DNA of 64,000 nt from Candidatus Babeliales bacterium (GCA_050250855.1 JBFWNW010000003.1:145856-209855); one strand, 5' to 3'. Positions 7,675 through 30,757 are shown, numbered from the stretch's first letter. Notes: generated by a model not told the origin, from the letters alone. Translations and numbers: made by a program.

Positions 7675-7941
7675 ATGAAAAAATCAATCATTCTTTCTTT
7701 TATTGGACTAACAATAGCATCTTCTTGGTCATATCTTTCTGCCTCAGACAAAACCCACACCGTCTATGAAAGTAATTCAACTACTGTTTATGGAAGCGCC
7801 AATAAAAGTGAAGTTTCTGTTGGTTTAGTGGTGACGACAAACAAAGATGTTTTAGGAAAAGCAGCAAAAAAAGCCAAAAAACTCAAAAAGATTAAAAAAG
7901 TTAAAAAACTTGGCAAGCATTTAAAGAAAATGAAATTTTAA
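7675..7941 (+). CDS. Small secreted protein with a Lys-rich C-terminus, function unknown
   Basis: 88 aa. Signal peptide MKKSIILSFIGLTIASSWS. C-terminal tail is KKAKKLKKIKKVKKLGKHLKK. Confidence 0.55.
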   Translation: MKKSIILSFIGLTIASSWSYLSASDKTHTVYESNSTTVYGSANKSEVSVGLVVTTNKDVLGKAAKKAKKLKKIKKVKKLGKHLKKMKF

Positions 7942-7960
7942 TAACTGTAGCTAAAAATGG

Positions 7961-7993
7961 TTAAGGGGGCATGCATTGTAGTCATGCCCTTAA
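7961..7993. terminator. Hairpin between convergent genes (possible bidirectional terminator)
   Basis: ttaaggg(gg)catg ... catgcccttaa forms a stem with a 2-nt bulge between the 7941 and 8043 gene ends. No clean U-tract. Confidence 0.35.
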
Positions 7994-8042
7994 CTATTAA
8001 AAGATTTTAATTCTGCAATTTCATTTATTTTTCAATTTAAAA

Positions 8043-9386
8043 TTAGAGCCTCTGGATAAGTGAATTTAGCAATAATGCTAAAAAAACATTCTCTAAATTA
8101 GGAGTGATTTGTGCAACCTTGACTGGCTCACTAATTTCTCCTAAAGTTTTTTGTGTTTCTTGTAAAAGTTGCATAAAAGTATCGTCACTTTCATAGCTTT
8201 GGTTGGCAAAATAGTTAATAATATCTTGTAATCTATTTAATGGTAACGGCAGCATAGATTTCATCACAGTATAAAACATATCATAATTTAAACTGTTTTC
8301 ATGCAATAATGAATTTTCATCATACTCATTTGCCAAGCAAAGTAATGCTTTGATCTTTTCATCAACATATTTAAGTGGATTTTTTATAATATCTTCAATA
8401 GCTGCTTGCAATTTTTTGTTAACAACTTCTTGATTAAAATAAAACTGGCTACATGCATTGATATCAGAACCATGTACAAGAAGCAGTGCTATACAATCAA
8501 TATTATTACTCACAAGAGCACTTACAAGCGGTGTGTAACCTAAAATATCTTTTGCATCTATTTCAACTTTAGCATCAATAAGAAGTTTTAAACACTCTAC
8601 GTGCCCATGCAGAGCAGCCACATGAAGTGGTGTTTCTACATTGTTATCTGGCTTATGAATATCAGCACCATGTTTCATAAAAATCTTTGCGCAATCTTTA
8701 TGACCTCCGCAAATAGCCGCACTAAAAGGTGTTTGACCAGTTGATCCATTTATACTATCTATTTCAGCTTTAGAAGCAATGAGCAATTTAACGCAAGCTA
8801 AGTTTCCTTTTGCAGCTGCTTTATAAAGAGGAGTTTCTCTTTTTTCATCTTTGCTATTTACATTCTCATTATTATTCACCAGAAGCTCTAAACAATGGTC
8901 TTTCCCTTTTTCAGCAAACAAATGAAGAAGTTTGTTTTTATCTTTCTTATCAAGCTTTGCTCCATTTAGAAAAAGATATTCTGCACAATCAGCATCTTTT
9001 TGAAGAAAGGCTATATCAAGTGGTGTATTTTTAGACAGATCTTTTGCATCAACCTTAGCACCATTTTTAATAAGCAATTCAGCGCAATCTTTATATCCCT
9101 TTTGAACAGCACAATGAAGGGGACTGTTTCCCAAATAATTTGACTTATTCACATCAGCACCCTGTTGAATGCTTGTTTCAATTGCTTGCAAAATAATTTG
9201 ATTATGGGTTAAACCCTTTTTCATACCACCAATAAGCCTAGAAATATCATTCTTATTGTGTGCAATAAAAGAAAAAAGATCATATATCTCTGGTCTCTTG
9301 AACGGATTATTTTCAACATCTTCTGCCGCGTACAGGGCCCCCGCAAGACTACAAGTTAGGGTAAAGATGGTAAGTAGTTTTTTCAT
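8043..9386 (-). CDS. Secreted ankyrin-repeat protein
   Basis: 447 aa. Signal peptide MKKLLTIFTLTCSLAGALYA. About 8 ankyrin repeats (NSPLHCAVQKGYKDCAELLIKNGAKV, ETPLHVAALHGHVECLKLLIDAKVEI and others). Confidence 0.9.
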   Translation of the reverse strand: MKKLLTIFTLTCSLAGALYAAEDVENNPFKRPEIYDLFSFIAHNKNDISRLIGGMKKGLTHNQIILQAIETSIQQGADVNKSNYLGNSPLHCAVQKGYKDCAELLIKNGAKVDAKDLSKNTPLDIAFLQKDADCAEYLFLNGAKLDKKDKNKLLHLFAEKGKDHCLELLVNNNENVNSKDEKRETPLYKAAAKGNLACVKLLIASKAEIDSINGSTGQTPFSAAICGGHKDCAKIFMKHGADIHKPDNNVETPLHVAALHGHVECLKLLIDAKVEIDAKDILGYTPLVSALVSNNIDCIALLLVHGSDINACSQFYFNQEVVNKKLQAAIEDIIKNPLKYVDEKIKALLCLANEYDENSLLHENSLNYDMFYTVMKSMLPLPLNRLQDIINYFANQSYESDDTFMQLLQETQKTLGEISEPVKVAQITPNLENVFLALLLNSLIQRL

Positions 9387-22868: not shown

Positions 22869-23585
22869 TCAATGAAACAACAGTGGAACAATAGTATTAT
22901 GAGCCATATGAGAAATAACCGGTACTAAAGAAAGATTTGTGGTGCTTCTCAATGTACGGTGACGCAGGAAATTACGCACCCCGCTACCAATAGATAAAGG
23001 TAATGGATAACATGAATGGACACTAGCAAAAAGAATTGGCATTAAATAGTTACTCAATCTAGGCATTATCGTAGATGGAGAATAGGTATACAAAAGTTCT
23101 TCAAATATTGGAGCAACTAGTATCGCACCTACCCAAGGTACTTTTTCTTGTGGAAAGCTTTTAGGGGTAAAAAGCAAATAATAAACTTTTGAAATTATCA
23201 CGTTTTGAATAATTCCATAAAGAGTTACTCTTAATCCAGCATAGAGATTTTTTTTAAATGAAAATTGATCAACATTATCATGAAAATGGAAAACTCCTTT
23301 TTCATCTTTATAAAAACATGGGCTACCATTATTAAACTCACTAAGACCTAAATCTGATTTAATAGTTTGAATAATAGTACGAAAAAAGCCATCCTTCTTT
23401 GGTGCTTCATGTTTTTCAGGGCTGCAAGAAGGATTCTGCTTTTCAGCATGCTCTAAGCCTTGCTTGGCAAGAGCAGAGAGATTATTTTTATAGTTCTGCC
23501 ATGAAAGATCTTGCTCTGAACTGGCCGGCTGCCAACCCAAAAACAAAACTATACATACTGCTATTTTTATTACATTCTTATTCAT
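22869..23585 (-). CDS. CPBP (CAAX protease/Abi) family intramembrane protease
   Basis: Motif 1 is APIFEELLY (EExxx), motif 2 is FASVH, motif 3 is HMAHN. Multi-TM protein, 238 aa, with an N-terminal signal-like segment. Confidence 0.65.
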   Translation of the reverse strand: MNKNVIKIAVCIVLFLGWQPASSEQDLSWQNYKNNLSALAKQGLEHAEKQNPSCSPEKHEAPKKDGFFRTIIQTIKSDLGLSEFNNGSPCFYKDEKGVFHFHDNVDQFSFKKNLYAGLRVTLYGIIQNVIISKVYYLLFTPKSFPQEKVPWVGAILVAPIFEELLYTYSPSTIMPRLSNYLMPILFASVHSCYPLPLSIGSGVRNFLRHRTLRSTTNLSLVPVISHMAHNTIVPLLFH

Positions 23586-23779
23586 AAAAACCTATAATAT
23601 TTTAAAAGCTTTAATAATAACGACCCAGAGCACCAATTAGTCTTAACTAATATGCCAGAAAACCATCTTTATGTACAGATACAAAACAGCCAAAATACCC
23701 ATATCTCTATTGACTTTTTATGGATTTATGGCAAATTGGAAATATATAGCATCATGAACCCAAAATAGAGAAAACACTT

Positions 23780-24697
23780 ATGACCCTTAAAAAGATAACT
23801 TTAGCCGCATTACTTGCCGCATACACCTGCCTGCCTCTACAGGCAATGGAAATCGATCCGTTTAAAAAGACTGGGATCCCTACTATGGATCAGCACAGCA
23901 CCCTTGTTAAATTATATGCTGCTGGGATACAAAAATTTGTTAATAGTTCAGTTGGAAAAACAGTTATGCCGTGGTATAGACAAAAATCTATTGATCTCTT
24001 AAAAAATAATCTTTTTTATGACCCCTCATCATATTTCGACGCAAGCCCAGAAATTCAACAGTTGGGTAAAGAAGCTCAAGAAAAATTAGAAATACCACAA
24101 GAACAGCAAGTTCCTATAAAACTTATGGCTATGAAAGTAAATATAGCAGCAGGATATACTCTCCCTACAGGGATATTTATCGGGCCTCCTAGCAAGAGAG
24201 CTCGGGATAAATTAATCTTACTACATGAATCAGCGCATAAAAAATATTATGATTGCGAAATACATTCTATAGAAGAATTATTAAACCTTATTACAAGCTC
24301 TTCTCTAGCTTATTTTTGCACAAAGACTCTAAAAAATTTTAAATTGACAAATAATTCTCTTTCTAAAAAATTTTTAGGCATAACTTCATTTCTAGGATCC
24401 TTGAAACTATTAGGAATTGGTATAGATAATAGTAGTAAATTTCGAGAATCTCGTGCCGACTTTACAGCGTTCCATGCCCTTGGTTGCCATAAGTGTGTAA
24501 GTGAATATTCTGAATTTAGGCCCACTCAAGATTCTGATAGGGGTAAAGAACTGAGAAGAGAAGGTTACTTTCCAAAAAACGATCTGGAAATCATTTCGGA
24601 AAAATTTCGTAAAGAAAATAGAGTTTGTGATTATCATGTTCAGCAGCAACAAAATATTTTCCAAAAAGCATGGCGAAATTTAAGGAACATCTTATGA
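23780..24697 (+). CDS. M48-like zinc metalloprotease paralog A1 (signal peptide, HExxH...ExxAD, C-terminal Cys/His motif)
   Basis: HESAH at nt 24224-24238. Hydrophobic segments follow, then ESRAD at 24446-24460. CHKC...CDYH near the C-terminus. The stop overlaps the next start (ATGA at 24694-24697). Confidence 0.7.
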   Translation: MTLKKITLAALLAAYTCLPLQAMEIDPFKKTGIPTMDQHSTLVKLYAAGIQKFVNSSVGKTVMPWYRQKSIDLLKNNLFYDPSSYFDASPEIQQLGKEAQEKLEIPQEQQVPIKLMAMKVNIAAGYTLPTGIFIGPPSKRARDKLILLHESAHKKYYDCEIHSIEELLNLITSSSLAYFCTKTLKNFKLTNNSLSKKFLGITSFLGSLKLLGIGIDNSSKFRESRADFTAFHALGCHKCVSEYSEFRPTQDSDRGKELRREGYFPKNDLEIISEKFRKENRVCDYHVQQQQNIFQKAWRNLRNIL

Positions 24698-25635
24698 CCC
24701 TTAAAAAGATAACTTTAGCTGCATTACTTGCCGCATACAGTTGCGGCCTGCCTTTACAGGCGATGGAAATCAATCCGTTTAAAAAGACGGGCATTCCTAC
24801 CATGGACCAGCACGGCACCCTTGTTAAAGTATGGGAAACAGGAATTCAAAAAGTTATTCAGCATAATAGCTTTATACGCGAAACTTTTTTGCCCGGAATA
24901 CGTAAAAAGCATAATGGGAACTGGGACCCTGCATGGCTCTCGGATGCAAATCCTGAAATACAACAACTAGGCAAAGAGGCGCAAGAAAAATTAGAAATAC
25001 CTCTGGAACAGCAAGTTCCCATAAAGCTTATGTATGGCAATCGTGCAGCTGGATACACTACCTCTATGGGAATATTTGTCCAAGATTTTAATAACAGGTC
25101 TATAAATAGATTTGTCTTATTTCATGAGGCTGCGCATAGAAAATATTGGGATGACAAACATGAGCTGCATTTTGCATCAACAGATACAGATAGTTTATTA
25201 GGAGCAACAGGAAATTTTTTCTTAGCAAGTTCATTAACCTACCTATTAATCTCAAACGAGTTTAAAAGTATTGCAAAATATTTTGCACTTCCTCAAACGA
25301 AATTTTCAGCTATTGCAAAAATAAGCTCTTCAGTAGGATACTTACTAGCATTTAAAGCTTGGAGAGATTATATAAATAATGAATATCCTAGTAAAAGAGA
25401 TGCCTTTGTAGAATCTCGTGCCGATTATACAGCATTCCATGCTCTTGATTGTCATAAATGTATCAGTGAGAGTTCTGAATTAAGTGCTAGCCAAGATTCT
25501 GATAGAGGTAAAAAACATCGCGAACGAGGTTATTTTCTAAAAGAGGATATGGAAATCATTGCGGAAAAATTCCGTAAGGAAAATAAAATTTGTGATTATC
25601 ATGCTCAGCAAAAAAATATTACACAGAATTTGTAA
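24694..25635 (+). CDS. M48-like zinc metalloprotease paralog B1
   Basis: HEAAH at 25123-25137. ESRADYTAFHAL. DCHKC...CDYH. Start chosen at the conserved MTLKKITLAALLAAY, not the upstream ATG at 24670. Confidence 0.7.
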   Translation: MTLKKITLAALLAAYSCGLPLQAMEINPFKKTGIPTMDQHGTLVKVWETGIQKVIQHNSFIRETFLPGIRKKHNGNWDPAWLSDANPEIQQLGKEAQEKLEIPLEQQVPIKLMYGNRAAGYTTSMGIFVQDFNNRSINRFVLFHEAAHRKYWDDKHELHFASTDTDSLLGATGNFFLASSLTYLLISNEFKSIAKYFALPQTKFSAIAKISSSVGYLLAFKAWRDYINNEYPSKRDAFVESRADYTAFHALDCHKCISESSELSASQDSDRGKKHRERGYFLKEDMEIIAEKFRKENKICDYHAQQKNITQNL

Positions 25636-25655
25636 ATAAAATAGAGAAAACACTT

Positions 25656-26534
25656 ATGAACCTTAAAAAAATAACCCTAACCGCATTACTTGCAGCATAC
25701 AGTTGCGGCCTGCCTTTACAGGCAATGGAAATTGATCCCTTTAAAAAGACTGGCATCCCGACCATGGATCAGCACAGCACCCTTGTTAAATTATATGCAA
25801 CTGGCATACAAAAATTTATTAATAGTTCAATTGGAAAAACAGTTATGCCGTGGTATAGAAACATAAATGCTGCTCTATACAATATCTTTGATAATTCAGC
25901 GTCATATAAGGATGCAAGTCCAGAGGTTCAACAACTGGGAAAAGAAGCACAAGAGAAACTTGGCATACCCCCAGAACAACAAGTCCCTATAAAACTTAGT
26001 GGCAGCTTTTTATCAAATTATAATTCTTCTGCAGGAATATTTATCGGAGATAACTCCAATAACCCAACAAATAGATGGATTCTATTTCATGAAGCGGCAC
26101 ACAGAAAATATTGGGATCCAGATATAGGATTACCAGAAGTTATTCTCAGCTTTCCTTTAACTTATTTCATTGGTACTAGCATTCCAAAAATCTTACAGGG
26201 ATTAGGGCTTATAAATGAATGTAGTGAAGGAATTATCGCCTATTCAATTCTTGCATCATTTGGAATGTTTTCCTATTTTTTAACAAAACATCAAGCCTTT
26301 CGTGAATCTCGTGCTGAGTATACAACTTTACATGCTCTTGATTGCTATGTATGCCCGACAGAAAGCTCTATATTACAATCTAGCCAAGATTCTGAGAGAG
26401 GCAAAGAAGAAAGAAAACTAGGTTATTTTTGTACGGAAGATGTACAAAAAGTAACAGATGAGTTGCGCAAAAAAAATAGATTATGTGCTTATCATGCTCA
26501 ACAGCAACAAAATATTATCCAAAAAGCATGGTAA
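25656..26534 (+). CDS. M48-like zinc metalloprotease paralog A2
   Basis: HEAAH at 26088-26102. ESRAEYTTLHAL. DCYVC...CAYH. The N-terminal 65 aa are nearly identical to A1. Confidence 0.7.
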   Translation: MNLKKITLTALLAAYSCGLPLQAMEIDPFKKTGIPTMDQHSTLVKLYATGIQKFINSSIGKTVMPWYRNINAALYNIFDNSASYKDASPEVQQLGKEAQEKLGIPPEQQVPIKLSGSFLSNYNSSAGIFIGDNSNNPTNRWILFHEAAHRKYWDPDIGLPEVILSFPLTYFIGTSIPKILQGLGLINECSEGIIAYSILASFGMFSYFLTKHQAFRESRAEYTTLHALDCYVCPTESSILQSSQDSERGKEERKLGYFCTEDVQKVTDELRKKNRLCAYHAQQQQNIIQKAW

Positions 26535-26551
26535 AACTTGAGGAACCTCTT

Positions 26552-27523
26552 ATGAACCTTAAAAAGATAACTTTAGCAGCATTACTTGCCGCATACAGCT
26601 GCGGCCTACCTCTACAGGCGATGGAAATCAATCCCTTTAAAAAGACGGGCATTCCTACCATGGACCAGCACGGCACCCTTGTTAAAGTATGGGAAACAGG
26701 GATTCAAAAAGTTATTCAACATAATAGTTTTGTACGCGAAACGCTTCTGCCCAGAATACGTAAAGAAAATATCAATCACTTAAAGGGTAATGAATTTGAA
26801 GACCCTGCATTGCACTTTGATGCAAGTCCTGAAATGCAACAACTAGGCAAAGAGGCGCAAGAAAAACTAGGCATAACACTAGAACAACAAGTTCCTATAA
26901 AAATTATGAAAAATGATGACCCTTTTGATGTTCTGGCCAAGCATAACTCGGCAGGAATATTTATAAAAAATTATAGTACAAAAGATGATTTGAATCAGGA
27001 GCTTAAAAAATCTTTAGATAAGCATGTATTATTTCATGAGTCAGCACACAGAAAATATTGGGATTCAGAGCTAGGAACGGAATTTTCACTGTTTCTAGCA
27101 GGATACCTTCCCATAGCTCTTTCTTCTTTTTATTTAGGATATTCAAAACGAGTTAAAAATACCATTGAACAATACATACCTGATCAAAATCCAGGAGATA
27201 TACAATTTTTGGGAACATGTTCTTATCTTATTTCAATAGGATTGGCGTGGGCTTACTATGCATTTATTAAATATCCTCAACAAAAAAGTGCTTTCATTGA
27301 ATCTCGTGCCGATTATACCGCTTTACATGCCCTTGATTGCCACATTTGCGTAATAAATTGTTCTCAATTGTGGATGAGCCAAGATTCTGATGGGGGCAAA
27401 GAAAGAAAAAAATTAGGTTATTTTCCAAAAGAAGATATCGAAATCATTGCAGAAAAACTCTATAAGAAAAATAGAATCTGTGATTATCATGCTCAGCAAA
27501 AAAATATTACACAAAATTTATAA
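26552..27523 (+). CDS. M48-like zinc metalloprotease paralog B2
   Basis: HESAH at 27035-27049. ESRADYTALHAL. DCHIC...CDYH. Start at the conserved MNLKKITLAALLAAY. N- and C-termini are nearly identical to B1. Confidence 0.7.
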   Translation: MNLKKITLAALLAAYSCGLPLQAMEINPFKKTGIPTMDQHGTLVKVWETGIQKVIQHNSFVRETLLPRIRKENINHLKGNEFEDPALHFDASPEMQQLGKEAQEKLGITLEQQVPIKIMKNDDPFDVLAKHNSAGIFIKNYSTKDDLNQELKKSLDKHVLFHESAHRKYWDSELGTEFSLFLAGYLPIALSSFYLGYSKRVKNTIEQYIPDQNPGDIQFLGTCSYLISIGLAWAYYAFIKYPQQKSAFIESRADYTALHALDCHICVINCSQLWMSQDSDGGKERKKLGYFPKEDIEIIAEKLYKKNRICDYHAQQKNITQNL

Positions 27524-27623: not shown

Positions 27624-29381
27624 ATGAAGAAATCTCTTATATCCCTTAGTATCCTCTTTTTCTCTCTTACTTGTCTGCATGCAGCAACCGTTGATCTTAA
27701 ACTTAATAAAATCGATGAAAAAACTTATAAAGCGGAAGTCAGCTTTGCACTCCAAGATGGCGAGCTCCTGTATCAACACGTTACTGATTTTTCTGTAGAT
27801 AGTCCTTATGTCGCTCTAGGACCGGTCAACGCACACAAAAGCCCGCTTAATAAATATGACCCTATCAGTAAAGAAACGCGTTTGATTTTTGAGCATGACG
27901 TTACTTATAGCATGGATCTTGCCAATAAAAAAGAAGGCTCCAATCCTGCACGGTTTTACGTTACGTATCAAACAAACCAACAAACAGTTCCTGATTATAA
28001 AATTTTTGAACTCCCATTTTCTGTAAAAGCAGCAGAAGAAACAACTTTAACTAAACCTGAAAAAGCTGCTGAACAAAAAACTGTTCATACGGCAAAGCAA
28101 CAATCATGGCTTAATATTCATGCATGGTCTTCATTACTTTCTTCCGTTATTGAACAAAGTAAATCATTGCCAATTCGTTTAGCATTAGTATTCTTGCTTG
28201 GCTTATTGCTCAGCTTAACGCCCTGCATTTATCCTATGATTCCGATCACCGTTGGCATTTTACAAACACAACAAAAAAAATCAGTATTTCATAATTTTTT
28301 AAATGCTTTTGCTTACACTATAGGAATTTCTACTACGTTTGCTTGCCTTGGTCTCTTGGCAAGTTTTAGTGGCCCCATTTACGGCAAACTGCTCATGAGC
28401 CCTATTTCTGTAGGGATATTAGTTATAATGCTTGGGTATTTAGGATTATCTATGTTTGGACTTTATGATATTCAAGTGCCACAATTTTTGCGTACTCAAA
28501 AAACAATGCCGACGGGTGCTTCTTATATTTCATCATTTTTATTTGGTGCTGCAAGCGGTACCATTGCTTCACCGTGCGTATCACCAGGACTTATTTTATT
28601 GCTCAGTATTGTTGCTGGCCTTGGCAGTGTTTTTCTTGGGTTTCTCTTGCTCTTTGCTTTTGGCGTAGGATTAAGTATGCCGTTATTGCTTATTGGCACT
28701 TTTTCAACATCACTGAATATACTACCCCGCGCAGGACTGTGGATGGTGGAAGTAAAAAAGATTTTTGGCATCATGCTCTTTGCCGTCTGCTTTTATTATT
28801 TGCATAATATTATGGCATTAACAACGCTCATGTATTTGATAAGTATATTTTTAATGGCCCTTGGTACTTATTTTCTGGTAACAAGTCATAAAACAACTTC
28901 TTACGGCATTAAGCGCTATCATACGCTTATGGGATTTGTTTTGATATGCGCGTCACTTCTTTGCCTTGGTTATACCCTGCAGCATGCTTATTTAGTAGTG
29001 CCAGAAGAAAAACATGCTACTAATTTTTGGAACACCAATTATCAAGAAGCACGTCAAAAAGCAATCAATGAACACAAGTTATTATTCTTAGATTTTTGGG
29101 CAGAATATTGCAGCTTATGCAAAGCAATTAATAAAAAATTAATCTCTCAAGAAGGTATTAAAAAAGCTCTTCAAAAAACAGTACCAGTCAATATTAATGG
29201 TACTGATGAACAGCAAGAACCCTACAAAACGTTGCATACAAAGTTTTCTATTAAAGGCTTTCCGACCTATTTACTCGTTGATCCAACTAATGAGCTTGTG
29301 CTCAAAGAATGGCACAGTGAGTTGTATCACATGGATGAAGAAACTTTTGTTCAGGAATTAGAGCTGTATACTAAACGATAA
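27624..29381 (+). CDS. dsbD: Thiol:disulfide interchange protein DsbD-like (TM core plus C-terminal thioredoxin domain)
   Basis: TM cysteines in LSLTPCIYPM and ASPCVSPG. C-terminal thioredoxin WAEYCSLCK. The N-terminal periplasmic domain has no Cys. Confidence 0.8.
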   Translation: MKKSLISLSILFFSLTCLHAATVDLKLNKIDEKTYKAEVSFALQDGELLYQHVTDFSVDSPYVALGPVNAHKSPLNKYDPISKETRLIFEHDVTYSMDLANKKEGSNPARFYVTYQTNQQTVPDYKIFELPFSVKAAEETTLTKPEKAAEQKTVHTAKQQSWLNIHAWSSLLSSVIEQSKSLPIRLALVFLLGLLLSLTPCIYPMIPITVGILQTQQKKSVFHNFLNAFAYTIGISTTFACLGLLASFSGPIYGKLLMSPISVGILVIMLGYLGLSMFGLYDIQVPQFLRTQKTMPTGASYISSFLFGAASGTIASPCVSPGLILLLSIVAGLGSVFLGFLLLFAFGVGLSMPLLLIGTFSTSLNILPRAGLWMVEVKKIFGIMLFAVCFYYLHNIMALTTLMYLISIFLMALGTYFLVTSHKTTSYGIKRYHTLMGFVLICASLLCLGYTLQHAYLVVPEEKHATNFWNTNYQEARQKAINEHKLLFLDFWAEYCSLCKAINKKLISQEGIKKALQKTVPVNINGTDEQQEPYKTLHTKFSIKGFPTYLLVDPTNELVLKEWHSELYHMDEETFVQELELYTKR

Positions 29382-30178: not shown

Positions 30179-30757
30179 ATGAAAAAAATAATATCTTCCT
30201 TACTACTTCTAGCTACAGCAAATATATATGCTATCATGTTTGATGCTGAAACTGAAAAAAAAATGAAAAAAGGCAACGAACTTTTTTATTTTGAGTGCGT
30301 TGCATGCGAACAGCTCCTTGATGAAACATTTCCTCTCACGACTATTGCTAAAGCAACAAAAGATAAATTTGATGCATTAAGACCAGGAACTATTCTCTAT
30401 GCAGCGAGTTTTGAACAATCTCGTACCATAGCAACAGAACTTCTTGATATCATAGAAAATCAAACAGATTATCAAGAAGCCTTGCAGCAAGCACAAGCAT
30501 TTGATACCAGTGAAGCATGGAGCATTGTGCACGCTATTGTCTATAAAAAAGCACGAGAACTCATTCAAGAAAAAAGCGACCTTGTTTTTCCATCACTCTT
30601 AAAAGATTACACTGATATGAAGTTAAAGCTTCGTGAATTTGCACAAGCAAATAAAACCATTGATCCTAAAAAGAATGGGCCTTATTTGGAAGCGCTTTCC
30701 TTTGTTATCTATCATATTGAATATATAAAAAAGGAATCACAAACGGTTGAAGATTAA
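30179..30757 (+). CDS. Secreted protein, function unknown
   Basis: 192 aa. Signal peptide MKKIISSLLLLATANIYA. GGAG RBS. Confidence 0.55.
   Translation: MKKIISSLLLLATANIYAIMFDAETEKKMKKGNELFYFECVACEQLLDETFPLTTIAKATKDKFDALRPGTILYAASFEQSRTIATELLDIIENQTDYQEALQQAQAFDTSEAWSIVHAIVYKKARELIQEKSDLVFPSLLKDYTDMKLKLREFAQANKTIDPKKNGPYLEALSFVIYHIEYIKKESQTVED

What the first reader, a model, noticed from the sequence alone, without database searches (positions are those of the whole stretch)
23780..27523. A-B-A-B tandem array of four signal-peptide M48-like metalloprotease paralogs
Four consecutive same-strand genes (292-323 aa) share one architecture. Each starts with a conserved signal peptide (M[TN]LKKITLAALLAAY.C.LPLQAMEI[DN]PFKKTGIPTMDQH). 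A QQLGKEAQEKL..P.EQQVPIKL segment follows, then an HExxH motif (nt 24224, 25123, 26088, 27035). One or two variable hydrophobic segments come next, then E-S-R-A-[DE]. The C-terminus carries C-x-x-C ... C-[DA]-Y-H. HExxH followed by TM helices and ExxAD is the signature of M48 (Ste24/HtpX) zinc proteases. Genes 1 and 3 share one N/C-terminal flavour (STLVKLYA.GIQKF ... QQQQNI.QKAW). Genes 2 and 4 share another (GTLVKVWETGIQKV ... AQQKNITQNL). The 5' leader aaaatagagaaaacactt precedes both gene 1 and gene 3. This means a two-gene unit of about 1.87 kb was duplicated. The conserved ends contrast with very divergent middles. At the gene 1/2 junction the stop seen in gene 3 (gcatggTAA) has become gcatggCGA. 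Gene 1 therefore reads on into an ATGA overlap with gene 2.
Basis: partly seen in the sequence, partly recalled or inferred. Interest (0 to 1): 0.7.

Follow-up and report, generated by a model that had tools for sequence, protein, structure and literature searches.

The report
Tandem exported M48-like zinc protease genes
Four neighbouring genes in a Babeliales (Dependentiae) intracellular bacterium encode exported zinc proteases of an uncurated family distantly related to the HtpX/BepA (M48) proteases; the family recurs in tandem arrays in this phylum, which makes it interesting but not a new kind of system.

Summary
Four same-strand genes (23780-27523) encode 292-323 aa paralogs that are 51-58% identical. 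Each has a signal peptide, HExxH, ESRA[DE] and CxxC...CxxH. No window protein hits Pfam, NCBIfam or PDB on its own. An exhaustive profile search found 254 relatives. In 100 aligned members the HExxH residues, D at +5, ExRAD, CxxC and CxxH are each conserved in 93-100%.

The link to M48 rests on several weak to moderate results:
- The family consensus passes the Pfam Peptidase_M48 cut-off (31.9 vs 20.3 bits), covering both motifs.
- 38 of 100 members hit M48 at E <= 1 (best 1e-06).
- A deep-alignment AF2 model (pLDDT 83) finds M48, M56 and minigluzincin structures first, but only weakly.

Named relatives are all Dependentiae hypothetical proteins. One relative carries eight tandem copies.

The A-B-A-B signal is confined to the leader, the first ~90 codons and the last ~12 codons, so the history is mosaic (gene conversion). 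The hydrophobic hairpin is only marginally hydrophobic and is absent in about 11% of members, so transmembrane helices are unproven.

Verdict: a new, lineage-restricted variant of M48-like gluzincins with a novel Cys3His C-terminal module. It is probably an extracytoplasmic protease. Moderate interest.

The parts
23762..23779 (+). 5' leader of g1 (AAAATAGAGAAAACACTT). The same 18-mer precedes g3 at 25638-25655.
   Evidence: repeat family D5.
23780..24697 (+). g1, 305 aa. Signal peptide 23780-23845; HESAH 24224-24238; ESRAD 24446-24460; CHKC 24485-24496; CDYH 24626-24637. A 7-codon C-terminal extension follows because TAA has become CGA.
   Evidence: The first 195 codons are confirmed in a second assembly.
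24694..25635 (+). g2, 313 aa, start overlapping the g1 stop (ATGA). AAGGAAC Shine-Dalgarno-like leader. HEAAH 25123-25137; ESRAD 25411-25425.
   Evidence: This is the protein modelled by AF2.
25656..26534 (+). g3, 292 aa. HEAAH 26088-26102; ESRAE 26304-26318; CYVC and CAYH. The most divergent C-terminal third of the four.
26552..27523 (+). g4, 323 aa. GAGGAAC leader. HESAH 27035-27049; ESRAD 27299-27313.
   Evidence: The identical sequence, with the same downstream genes, occurs in a second assembly.
24662..24963 (+). g1/g2 junction segment: last ~12 codons of g1, the leader, and the first ~90 codons of g2. It is the homologue of the g3/g4 junction segment at about 26499-26821. The segment starting 40 nt before the start codon and running 270 nt into the gene is 83.5% nt identical between g2 and g4, against 70-73% for cross-type pairs. 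The matching g1 and g3 segments (23740-24049 and 25616-25925) are 81.3% identical.
27624..29381 (+). Downstream DsbD-type thiol:disulfide interchange protein. It is a neighbour, not shown to be part of the system. It is included because the array proteins carry three invariant exported cysteines.
   Evidence: DsbD_TM 6.5e-45. The adjacency is not found in the other loci fetched.

Best explanation
The four genes are a lineage-specific tandem expansion of a Dependentiae-restricted, uncurated family of Sec-exported zinc metallopeptidases. The catalytic core of the family is a divergent M48-type gluzincin.

**Shown**
- Each protein has a cleavable-looking signal peptide: KK n-region, a ~13-residue h-region and LQA|ME.
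- The predicted core runs in the gluzincin order. A backing helix (LGKEAQEKL) is followed by a small beta-sheet (VPIK...GIF), then the zinc helix with HExxH and a conserved Asp five residues after the second His. A later helix carries E-x-R-A-D.
- These residues are 93-100% conserved over 100 homologs.
- They align co-linearly with HExxH-x4-[H/D] and ExxAD of HtpX, BepA, LoiP and YcaL.

**Inferred mechanism**
- Zn2+ is held by the two His of HExxH and the Glu of ExRAD.
- The Glu of HExxH activates the water.
- Peptide substrates dock on the edge strand of the sheet.

**Two family-specific additions**
1. A 60-90 residue helical hairpin is inserted between the zinc helix and the Glu helix. This is the same position as H3/H4 of HtpX. 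It is hypervariable, only marginally hydrophobic, and missing in some members. I read it as an accessory membrane-docking or substrate-gating element, not as part of the catalytic machinery.
2. A confidently predicted C-terminal helical module carries invariant CxxC...CxxH. It most likely forms a structural Cys3His zinc site; a disulfide is the alternative.

**Location and role**
Export places the whole active site outside the cytoplasm. Three features point to proteolysis of extracytoplasmic or host-derived targets rather than one housekeeping quality-control job:
- The organism is an obligate intracellular parasite of protists.
- The family is repeatedly amplified in tandem (2, 4 and 8 copies).
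- Leaders are homogenised while bodies diverge.

**Array evolution**
The array arose by duplication. Later gene conversion or unequal exchange homogenised the junction-spanning segments in an alternating pattern.
For: **The family is real**
- 254 relatives at E <= 1e-3 and 117 at E <= 1e-10.
- Motif census over 151 sequences: HExxH 144, ExRA[DE] 137, CxxC 150, CxxH 147.
- Column conservation in 100 sequences: H 96, E 98, H 99, D(+5) 93, E 99, R 96, A 100, D 95, C 100, C 100, Y 97, C 99, H 99.

**Relationship to M48**
- Consensus versus PF01435: E = 1.5e-7, 31.9 bits against a cut-off of 20.3, profile positions 5-152 of 186.
- 38 of 100 members hit M48, 13 hit M56.
- Member L009:541-1335 scores 20.4 bits.
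- A PDB profile search finds selecase MJ1213 at E = 1.9e-4.
- hhalign against four E. coli M48 proteins aligns both motifs over 144 columns, at E = 6e-4 and probability 29%.

**Structure**
- AF2 with 100 sequences gives pLDDT 82.8 and pTM 0.78. The catalytic core and the C-terminal module reach 87-97.
- The Foldseek top list is 3c37 (annotated only as a putative Zn-dependent peptidase; I recall it as an M48 homologue), BepA, abylysin (prob 0.95), selecase (prob 0.91, rmsd 2.1 over 74 columns), BlaR1 and Ste24.

**Export**
- An N-terminal hydrophobic segment is present in 111 of 135 members and in all four window proteins.

**Tandem amplification elsewhere**
- L008 has 8 copies; L002 and L012 have 2 each.

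**Taxonomy**
- Named sources are Candidatus Babeliales or Dependentiae.
- A published Dependentiae genome paper lists secreted M48 peptidases among putative effectors and reports signal peptides on 44% of CDS (PMC6561590).

**Mosaic evolution**
-.
Against: - No individual window protein reaches any curated family threshold.
- Foldseek found no match at E <= 0.001. Whole-chain TM-scores are 0.15-0.32, so only the ~75-100 residue core superposes.
- The hhalign probability against the shallow E. coli profile is only 29-49%.
- I could not read model coordinates. The zinc ligands (E217 versus D130 as third ligand) and the Cys3His site are therefore inferred from sequence position only.
- No signal-peptide or topology predictor was available.
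- The host-directed role is inference from lifestyle and copy number. Genomic context is not conserved, so it gives no functional clue.
- One L008 copy has lost HExxH and the Glu but keeps the Cys motif. Non-catalytic roles therefore exist within the family.
Confidence: 0.62

Rival explanations
1. These are housekeeping envelope quality-control proteases. On this reading the four proteins do what BepA, YcaL and LoiP (periplasm and outer membrane) or HtpX (inner membrane) do in E. coli: they degrade stalled or misfolded membrane proteins of the bacterium itself. The paralogs would simply divide that substrate range between them.
For: The closest characterised relatives by profile and fold are exactly these enzymes. 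The proteins carry an export signal. The neighbours are envelope and housekeeping genes: Tol-Pal, DsbD, FtsH and Der.
Against: - Quality-control M48 enzymes are normally conserved single-copy orthologs that curated models recognise. These proteins are unrecognised by Pfam and NCBIfam.
- They are at most 30% identical to any protein outside the array.
- They are confined to one phylum.
- They are independently amplified to 2-8 tandem copies with fast-diverging bodies.
- They lack the TPR or lipoprotein features of BepA, LoiP and YcaL.
Confidence: 0.25
2. These are integral-membrane HtpX-type proteases. The N-terminal segment would be an uncleaved anchor. The two hydrophobic segments between HExxH and ExxAD would be true transmembrane helices, giving a polytopic protease with its active site at the outer face of the inner membrane.
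For: - The insert sits at the same position as the H3/H4 hydrophobic pair of HtpX.
- AF2 predicts two helices of about 30 residues each.
- g3 and g4 each have two segments with Kyte-Doolittle hydropathy (19-residue window) of about 1.26-1.5.
Against: - No segment reaches the usual 1.6 threshold.
- A crude Hessa-scale sum (scale values recalled from memory) gives +2 to +7 kcal/mol for the window proteins, with a family median of about +5.
- g1 has only one weak segment.
- 43 of 135 members have no segment at hydropathy >= 1.4.
- 15 of 135 members have a 17-48 residue hydrophilic linker instead.
- The signal h-region is only about 13 residues and is followed by LQA|ME.
Confidence: 0.3
3. These are non-catalytic zinc- or thiol-dependent binding proteins (pseudoproteases), or members of a different HExxH family such as SprT/WLM-like or M78 ImmA/IrrE-like. 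On this reading the resemblance to M48 is superficial.
For: - 5 of 100 members give weak hits to SprT-like, and 5 of 100 to M78.
- SprT-type proteins also combine HExxH with a C-terminal Cys-rich zinc module (my own knowledge).
- IrrE/PprI structures appear in the Foldseek list.
- One L008 paralog lost the catalytic residues but kept the Cys motif.
Against: - M48 hits are far more frequent (38 of 100). Only M48 is matched across both HExxH and ExxAD and above its curated cut-off.
- All four window proteins keep every catalytic residue.
- SprT and ImmA proteins are cytoplasmic, whereas these carry signal peptides.
Confidence: 0.08
4. The array is an assembly artefact. The true copy number or order differs because repeats were collapsed, expanded or chimerically joined.
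For: A second assembly of the same strain breaks inside the array, at window 24366 and 26433. The conserved junction segments are 81-84% identical between alternate copies.
Against: - Each gene has a unique middle, with only about 40% nt identity between copies.
- All four reading frames are intact, with all motifs present.
- Both flanks, and the g3-tail-to-g4 junction, are reproduced base for base in the second assembly.
- Repeats of >= 85% identity are shorter than about 170 nt.
- Comparable arrays exist in unrelated assemblies.
Confidence: 0.05

Closest known systems
Peptidase family M48 (Pfam PF01435): HtpX, BepA/YfgC, LoiP/YggG, YcaL, Ste24, Oma1
   Same: It shares HExxH followed by H/D at +5, and a downstream E-x-x-A-D helix. 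The order of backing helix, beta-sheet, zinc helix and Glu helix is co-linear. As in HtpX, a hydrophobic helical pair is inserted between the zinc helix and the Glu helix. As in BepA, LoiP and YcaL, the protein is exported.
   Different: - Individual proteins fall below the Pfam cut-off.
- There are no N-terminal TM1/TM2 helices (HtpX), no TPR domain (BepA) and no lipobox (LoiP, YcaL).
- The M48 C-terminal 'HP...R' region is replaced by a helical module with invariant CxxC...CxxH.
- The family is phylum-restricted and tandemly amplified.
Minigluzincins (selecase MJ1213, proabylysin, projannalysin; PDB 4qhf-4qhj, 4jiu, 4jix)
   Same: Selecase is the only PDB entry found by sequence profile (E = 1.9e-4). 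These entries also give the best local structural superpositions (prob 0.91-0.95, rmsd 2.1-3.2 over 74-79 columns). The hairpin-less family members (L008, L010-L012) are similarly compact.
   Different: Minigluzincins are ~100-residue cytosolic archaeal proteins that use a third His as zinc ligand (PMC6925264). This family has Glu in ExRAD, a signal peptide, N- and C-terminal extra modules and usually the hairpin insert.
Peptidase M56 (BlaR1/MecR1 zinc-protease domain)
   Same: 13 of 100 members hit PF05569 weakly around HExxH. BlaR1 cryo-EM structures appear in the Foldseek list. It is a gluzincin core associated with hydrophobic or re-entrant helices.
   Different: All hits are below the curated cut-off. 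There is no sensor domain and no ExxCD-type motif, and the topology and size differ.
SprT-like / WLM metalloproteases
   Same: HExxH plus a C-terminal Cys-rich putative zinc module. There are weak Pfam hits in 5 of 100 members.
   Different: The hits cover only ~40 residues around HExxH. SprT/WLM proteins are cytoplasmic or nuclear and lack ExxAD. This family is exported and matches M48 over both motifs.

Membership tests
Peptidase M48 (PF01435) | HExxH zinc-binding and catalytic motif. | tested here: met
   Present in all four window proteins. The three residues are 96-99% conserved in 100 homologs. hhalign places it on the HExxH of HtpX, BepA, LoiP and YcaL.
Peptidase M48 (PF01435) | Third-ligand glutamate in an E-x-x-A-D helix downstream of HExxH. 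This motif is invariant in the four E. coli M48 proteins. | tested here: met
   ESRAD or ESRAE in all four. Conservation across the family is E 99%, A 100%, D 95%. hhalign aligns it with the ExxAD of the E. coli M48 profile. Actual metal ligation was not testable.
Peptidase M48 (PF01435) | Score at or above Pfam's gathering threshold (20.3 bits). | tested here: inconclusive
   The four window proteins give no hit even at E <= 10. The family consensus scores 31.9 bits, E = 1.5e-7, over profile positions 5-152 of 186. Natural member L009:541-1335 scores 20.4 bits. 38 of 100 members match at E <= 1.
Peptidase M48 (PF01435) | Gluzincin/M48 catalytic fold. | tested here: inconclusive
   The AF2 model is good (pLDDT 82.8). 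The Foldseek top list is dominated by M48, M56 and minigluzincin entries. All hits have E >= 0.08, and only the ~75-100 residue core superposes well.
Peptidase M48 (PF01435) | Zinc-dependent endopeptidase activity. | not testable with these tools
   This needs recombinant protein, metal analysis and activity assays with Glu-to-Ala mutants.
HtpX subfamily (M48B integral-membrane) | Two N-terminal TM helices and a membrane-embedded hydrophobic pair between HExxH and Glu, with a cytoplasm-facing active site. | tested here: not met
   There is only one N-terminal hydrophobic segment, and it looks like a signal peptide. The insert is marginally hydrophobic, and it is absent in 15 of 135 members. 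The predicted orientation is extracytoplasmic (inference).
Minigluzincins | A ~100-residue soluble scaffold with HExxH plus a third His ligand. | tested here: not met
   The proteins are 292-323 aa with extra modules. The position of the third ligand carries Glu (ExRAD). The His-ligand criterion is taken from PMC6925264. Similarity to selecase is local only.
SprT-like (PF10263) | Pfam match above the cut-off (25.6 bits). | tested here: not met
   The best E-value is 0.01, in 5 of 100 members. The one example listed (P0033, 15.5 bits) covers only about 40 residues around HExxH.

The most novel reading that the evidence does not exclude
The family is a Dependentiae-specific arsenal of secreted, host-directed proteases.
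- Conserved leaders and pro-segments are kept uniform by gene conversion.
- The inserted hairpin diversifies to retarget the enzyme to different host membranes or substrates.
- The invariant CxxC...CxxH module acts as a redox- or zinc-dependent latency switch. It would keep the enzyme inactive until it leaves the bacterial periplasm.

On this reading the tandem arrays of 2-8 copies are the footprint of an arms race with protist hosts.
Probability: 0.2. Interest if true: 0.65.

Novelty: new variant of a known kind. Interest (0 to 1): 0.42.

Why it matters
Dependentiae (TM6) are widespread, almost uncultured intracellular parasites of protists. Very few of their effectors have been characterised.

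This work defines a family of at least 254 sequence clusters that curated databases miss and that sources label 'hypothetical protein'. It assigns the family a testable catalytic mechanism: an M48-type gluzincin. It also shows repeated tandem amplification with homogenised export leaders.

The hairpin-containing and hairpin-less natural variants offer a ready-made comparison. They could show what the hydrophobic insert of HtpX-like proteases contributes. The Cys3His module has not been described as an appendage of this protease clan.

The catalytic chemistry itself is ordinary. No function has been demonstrated.

Tried and rejected
- **Direct family and structure searches with the four proteins.** Pfam, NCBIfam and a PDB sequence search gave nothing.
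- **Word-indexed homolog search.** It returned only the window's own proteins, one partial from the same strain and, in the second search, one other family member. It misses this family. Only the exhaustive HMM search worked.
- **AF2 with the four paralogs alone.** The model was useless (pLDDT 43) and I did not use it for fold search.
- **Pattern scan with the 100-sequence alignment.** A 15-sequence subset worked.
- **Conserved operon context.** Only one related locus (L011) shares the CCA-enzyme neighbour. DsbD, DUF4097 and the Rce1-like neighbour are not conserved next to family members. I therefore rejected any DsbD-linked operon model.
- **Promoter and terminator scan.** It found no more sites than in shuffled sequence and was uninformative.
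- **Viral collection.** No relatives were found, so I rejected a phage or giant-virus origin.
- **dN/dS in the variable middle.** Values of about 0.6-1.4 come with saturated dS and about 40% nt identity. I rejected this as evidence of positive selection.
- **Lipoprotein reading of the signal-peptide Cys (AAYSC).** The residues at -3 to -1 do not fit a lipobox, and the Cys is not conserved across the family. I rejected this, though only weakly.
- **hhalign against single HtpX and a 4-sequence E. coli M48 alignment.** The motifs align co-linearly but probabilities are low (49% and 29%). I use this only as supporting evidence.

Full report
**1. What is in the sequence**

Between 23780 and 27523 there are four consecutive + strand ORFs. 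Using the start codons that line up with each other, the genes are:
- g1: 23780-24697, 305 aa
- g2: 24694-25635, 313 aa
- g3: 25656-26534, 292 aa
- g4: 26552-27523, 323 aa

For g2 and g4 the mechanical ORF list gives longer upstream starts. The homologous M[TN]LKK starts are preceded by AAGGAAC or GAGGAAC, so I used those.

The proteins are 51-58% identical to each other. They share:
- an almost invariant N-terminus, M[TN]LKKITLAALLAAY.C.LPLQAMEI[DN]PFKKTGIPTMDQH
- a QQLGKEAQEKL..P.EQQVPIK block
- HE[SA]AH.KY.D
- a variable, partly hydrophobic stretch
- ESRA[DE]
- C..C, GYF and C[DA]YH

That covers HExxH at 24224, 25123, 26088 and 27035, the 18-nt leader before g1 and g3, the TAA-to-CGA change and the ATGA overlap.

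The hmmsearch over the window's ORFs of at least 80 codons finds no fifth copy.

**2. Organism and assembly**

The only named close hit is a partial protein from a 'Candidatus Babeliales bacterium' MAG. Two contigs of that assembly (GCA_050181685.1) match the window with 0 mismatches in 7091 bases and 2 in 6587 bases. They end at window 24366 (inside g1) and begin at 26433 (inside the g3 tail).

The left flank with the first 195 codons of g1 is therefore independently confirmed. So is the stretch from the end of g3 through g4 and DsbD. The interior of the array rests on the window's own 222-kb contig. The unique, about 40% identical gene middles make a collapse or expansion artefact unlikely.

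The surrounding genes are ordinary housekeeping ones: CCA-adding enzyme, TolQ/ExbD/TonB-like, FtsH, DsbD, HPF and Der.

**3. The family**

None of the four proteins matches Pfam, NCBIfam or PDB sequences. The word-indexed search finds almost nothing.

The exhaustive profile search finds 254 cluster representatives at E <= 1e-3, and 117 at E <= 1e-10. Most are 260-300 aa.

Among the 151 sequences in hand, the motif counts are HExxH 144, ExRA[DE] 137, CxxC 150 and CxxH 147.

In a 100-sequence alignment the near-invariant columns, in g2 mature numbering, are:
- H121 (96%), E122 (98%) and H125 (99%)
- D130 (93%)
- E217 (99%), R219 (96%), A220 (100%) and D221 (95%)
- C230 and C233 (both 100%)
- Y257 (97%)
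- C277 and H280 (both 99%)

**4. Relationship to known proteases**

Scanning all 100 members against Pfam at E <= 1 gives Peptidase_M48 in 38 (best 1e-6), M56 in 13, M78 in 5 and SprT-like in 5.

The HMM consensus of the family hits PF01435 with E = 1.5e-7 and 31.9 bits, above the 20.3-bit gathering score. The match covers consensus residues 72-219 against profile positions 5-152 of 186. That runs from the LGKEAQ helix through HExxH to ExRAD. One natural member, L009:541-1335, reaches 20.4 bits.

A PDB profile search finds only selecase MJ1213, a minigluzincin, at E = 1.9e-4.

I fetched the four real E. coli M48 proteins: HtpX, BepA, LoiP and YcaL. Their alignment shows invariant HExxH and E..AD, with H or D five residues after the second His. 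hhalign of the family profile against them aligns HExxH with HExxH, KYxD with the +5 H/D, and ERRAD with E.EAD over 144 columns. The template is shallow, so the statistics are weak: E = 6e-4 with probability 29%, and 49% against HtpX alone.

**5. Structure**

AF2 with four sequences failed (pLDDT 43). With the 100-sequence alignment it gave pLDDT 82.8 and pTM 0.78. The region from residue 61 to 130 and the C-terminal 80 residues reach 87-97.

The predicted order of elements is:
- N-terminal helices
- helix 64-76 (LGKEAQEKL)
- three short strands
- helix 112-127 carrying HExxH
- a poorly predicted loop
- two helices of about 30 residues each (145-174 and 178-207)
- helix 209-228 carrying ESRAD
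- four short helices, with CxxC at the start of one and CxxH at the start of the last

Foldseek against PDB gave no hit at E <= 0.001, but the ranking is coherent:
- 3c37, annotated as a putative Zn-dependent peptidase (an M48 homologue by my recollection)
- BepA 6ait
- proabylysin 4jiu (prob 0.95, rmsd 3.2 over 79 columns)
- IrrE/PprI
- selecase 4qhh (prob 0.91, rmsd 2.1 over 74 columns)
- BlaR1 8exr
- projannalysin 4jix
- Ste24 4il3

The catalytic core therefore looks like a minimal gluzincin. The rest of the chain has no counterpart in PDB.

**6. The insert and topology**

The distance from HExxH to the Glu is 60-110 residues in 118 of 135 members. In 15 it is only 17-48 residues, and those linkers are not hydrophobic. 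Examples are the L008 array and L010-L012. The hairpin is thus an optional insertion at the position where HtpX has its H3/H4 pair.

Its hydrophobicity is marginal:
- The Kyte-Doolittle 19-residue maxima are 1.1-1.5 in the window proteins.
- A crude Hessa-scale sum (scale values from memory) gives +2 to +7 kcal/mol, with a family median near +5.

I therefore do not accept 'TM helices' as shown. A membrane-docking or re-entrant hairpin, or a hydrophobic lid, are equally possible.

The N-terminal segment looks like a Sec signal peptide rather than an anchor. It has a KK n-region, a ~13-residue hydrophobic core and LQA|ME. This judgement is by rule of thumb, since no predictor was available.

**7. 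Evolution of the array**

The four paralogs are each other's closest relatives. They are at most 30% identical to anything else, so this is a lineage-specific expansion.

The A-B-A-B pattern is strong only in a segment spanning each gene junction:
- Informative sites give 37:3:3 for (g1,g3)(g2,g4) in the leader plus the first 90 codons.
- They give 5:0:0 in the last 12 codons.
- They give 21:30:14 in between (Fisher p = 4e-8).

Synonymous divergence is 0.2-0.5 within types at the 5' end. In the well-aligned LGKEAQ and HExxH blocks it is mostly >= 1 or saturated. The main exceptions are the g2-g4 pair in the LGKEAQ block (dS 0.53) and the g1-g2 pair in the HExxH block (0.74). In the C-terminal third the closest pair is g1-g2 (dS 0.53) and g3 is the outlier.

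A single duplication of a 1.87-kb two-gene unit cannot give this pattern by itself. Old paralogs with later conversion or unequal-exchange tracts across the junctions fit better.

The apparent dN/dS of about 1 in the hairpin is not interpretable, because the region is saturated and poorly aligned.

**8. Distribution**

A pattern scan of one genome per GTDB species found 13 loci. Those with informative names are Babeliales or Dependentiae. Several are labelled only 'uncultured bacterium' or 'uncultured Pseudomonadota'. One of the latter, L011, carries a CCA-enzyme ortholog scoring 568 bits against the window's, about 2.6 kb upstream of its family gene (with another ORF between). Its label is therefore doubtful.

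Tandem copies recur:
- L008 has eight in a row. Several of the copies share a nearly identical signal peptide, MNFKIKILSILVLLSLNCFAME, while the copies are only 26-56% identical overall. One copy has lost HExxH and the Glu but kept CxxC...CxxH.
- L002 and L012 have two each.

Named cluster members are 'hypothetical protein' from Candidatus Dependentiae. One entry comes from a rotifer assembly. No relatives exist in the viral collection.

A paper on the cultured Dependentiae Chromulinavorax lists secreted M48 peptidases among putative effectors. It also notes that 44% of its CDS carry signal peptides (PMC6561590).

**9. Interpretation**

The best-supported reading is that these are exported zinc endopeptidases with an M48-type active site.
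- *Shown:* motif identity, conservation and co-linearity.
- *Inferred:* His/His/Glu zinc ligation with the HExxH Glu as general base.

They carry an optional hairpin insert and a new C-terminal Cys3His module. That module is probably a structural zinc site; a disulfide is the alternative. The DsbD gene immediately downstream is suggestive, but the adjacency is not conserved elsewhere.

I lean towards a host- or environment-directed role rather than pure envelope quality control, for these reasons:
- The family is restricted to an obligately host-dependent phylum.
- It is invisible to curated ortholog models.
- It is repeatedly amplified in tandem, with homogenised leaders and fast-diverging bodies.

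This step is inference.

**10. Verdict**

The central interpretation (M48-like) is supported as remote homology. The duplication model and the TM assignment need revision.

This is a new, phylum-restricted variant within a known protease clan. It is worth curating and testing, but it is not a new kind of system.

Noticed in passing
window 22869-23585 (-): The 238-aa membrane protein transcribed divergently from the array has FEELLY, H and HxxxN-type motifs. It gives a weak Rce1-like/CPBP (type II CAAX protease) Pfam hit at E = 0.0042, 17.8 bits, below the cut-off. It may be a second putative membrane protease next to the array. The adjacency is not seen in other loci.
   Followed up: partly
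L008:4697-10629: This Candidatus Dependentiae MAG carries eight tandem family copies. Several share a near-identical signal peptide, and the inserts are short or acidic instead of the hydrophobic hairpin. Copy 7916-8926 has lost HExxH (FLAAVKAKYKD) and the Glu (QHRTD) but keeps CxxC...CxxH, so it is a likely pseudoprotease.
   Followed up: partly
window 24243 (g1 codon 155); window 24366 and 26433: The second assembly of the same strain differs by one non-synonymous change, K155I. This residue is the family-conserved Lys of HxKY, right after HExxH. That assembly's contigs break inside the array. This may reflect population heterogeneity in the array.
   Followed up: partly
P0005 (CAF1448257.1, Didymodactylos carnosus): A 353-aa 'rotifer' protein consists of a truncated family copy fused to a full one. 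It sits on a 5.3-kb contig. It is probably contamination from a Dependentiae symbiont, or a mis-called tandem pair, rather than an animal gene.
   Followed up: no
L009:1295-2209 and L009:3262-4038: Two further signal-peptide proteins lie next to a family member. They have HExxH and E.RA[DE] about 45 residues apart but lack the complete CxxC...CxxH pair: one has neither motif, the other only an N-terminal CxxC upstream of HExxH. One gives a weak M48 hit at E = 0.044. They may be intermediates between canonical M48 and this family.
   Followed up: partly
L011 (CAYPXP010000069.1) and L003, L010, L012, L013: These records are titled 'uncultured Pseudomonadota'. L011 encodes a CCA-adding enzyme scoring 568 bits against the window's, about 2.6 kb upstream of its family gene with another ORF between. 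The taxonomic label is probably wrong and the records are likely Dependentiae.
   Followed up: partly
window 27624-29381 (+): A DsbD-type thiol:disulfide transporter lies 100 nt downstream of g4 on the same strand. This is tempting given the three invariant exported cysteines of the array proteins. The pairing is not conserved in the other loci examined.
   Followed up: partly
window 30179-30757 (+): A 192-aa ORF with a signal-peptide-like N-terminus (MKKIISSLLLLATANIYA) has no family match at any useful threshold. It is another exported orphan.
   Followed up: no
method (versus 21): The word-indexed homolog search returned, besides the window's own proteins and a same-strain partial, only one other family member (P0113, in the second search), even with a 100-sequence profile. 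The exhaustive HMM search found 254 relatives. Families this divergent are invisible to the indexed tool.
   Followed up: yes
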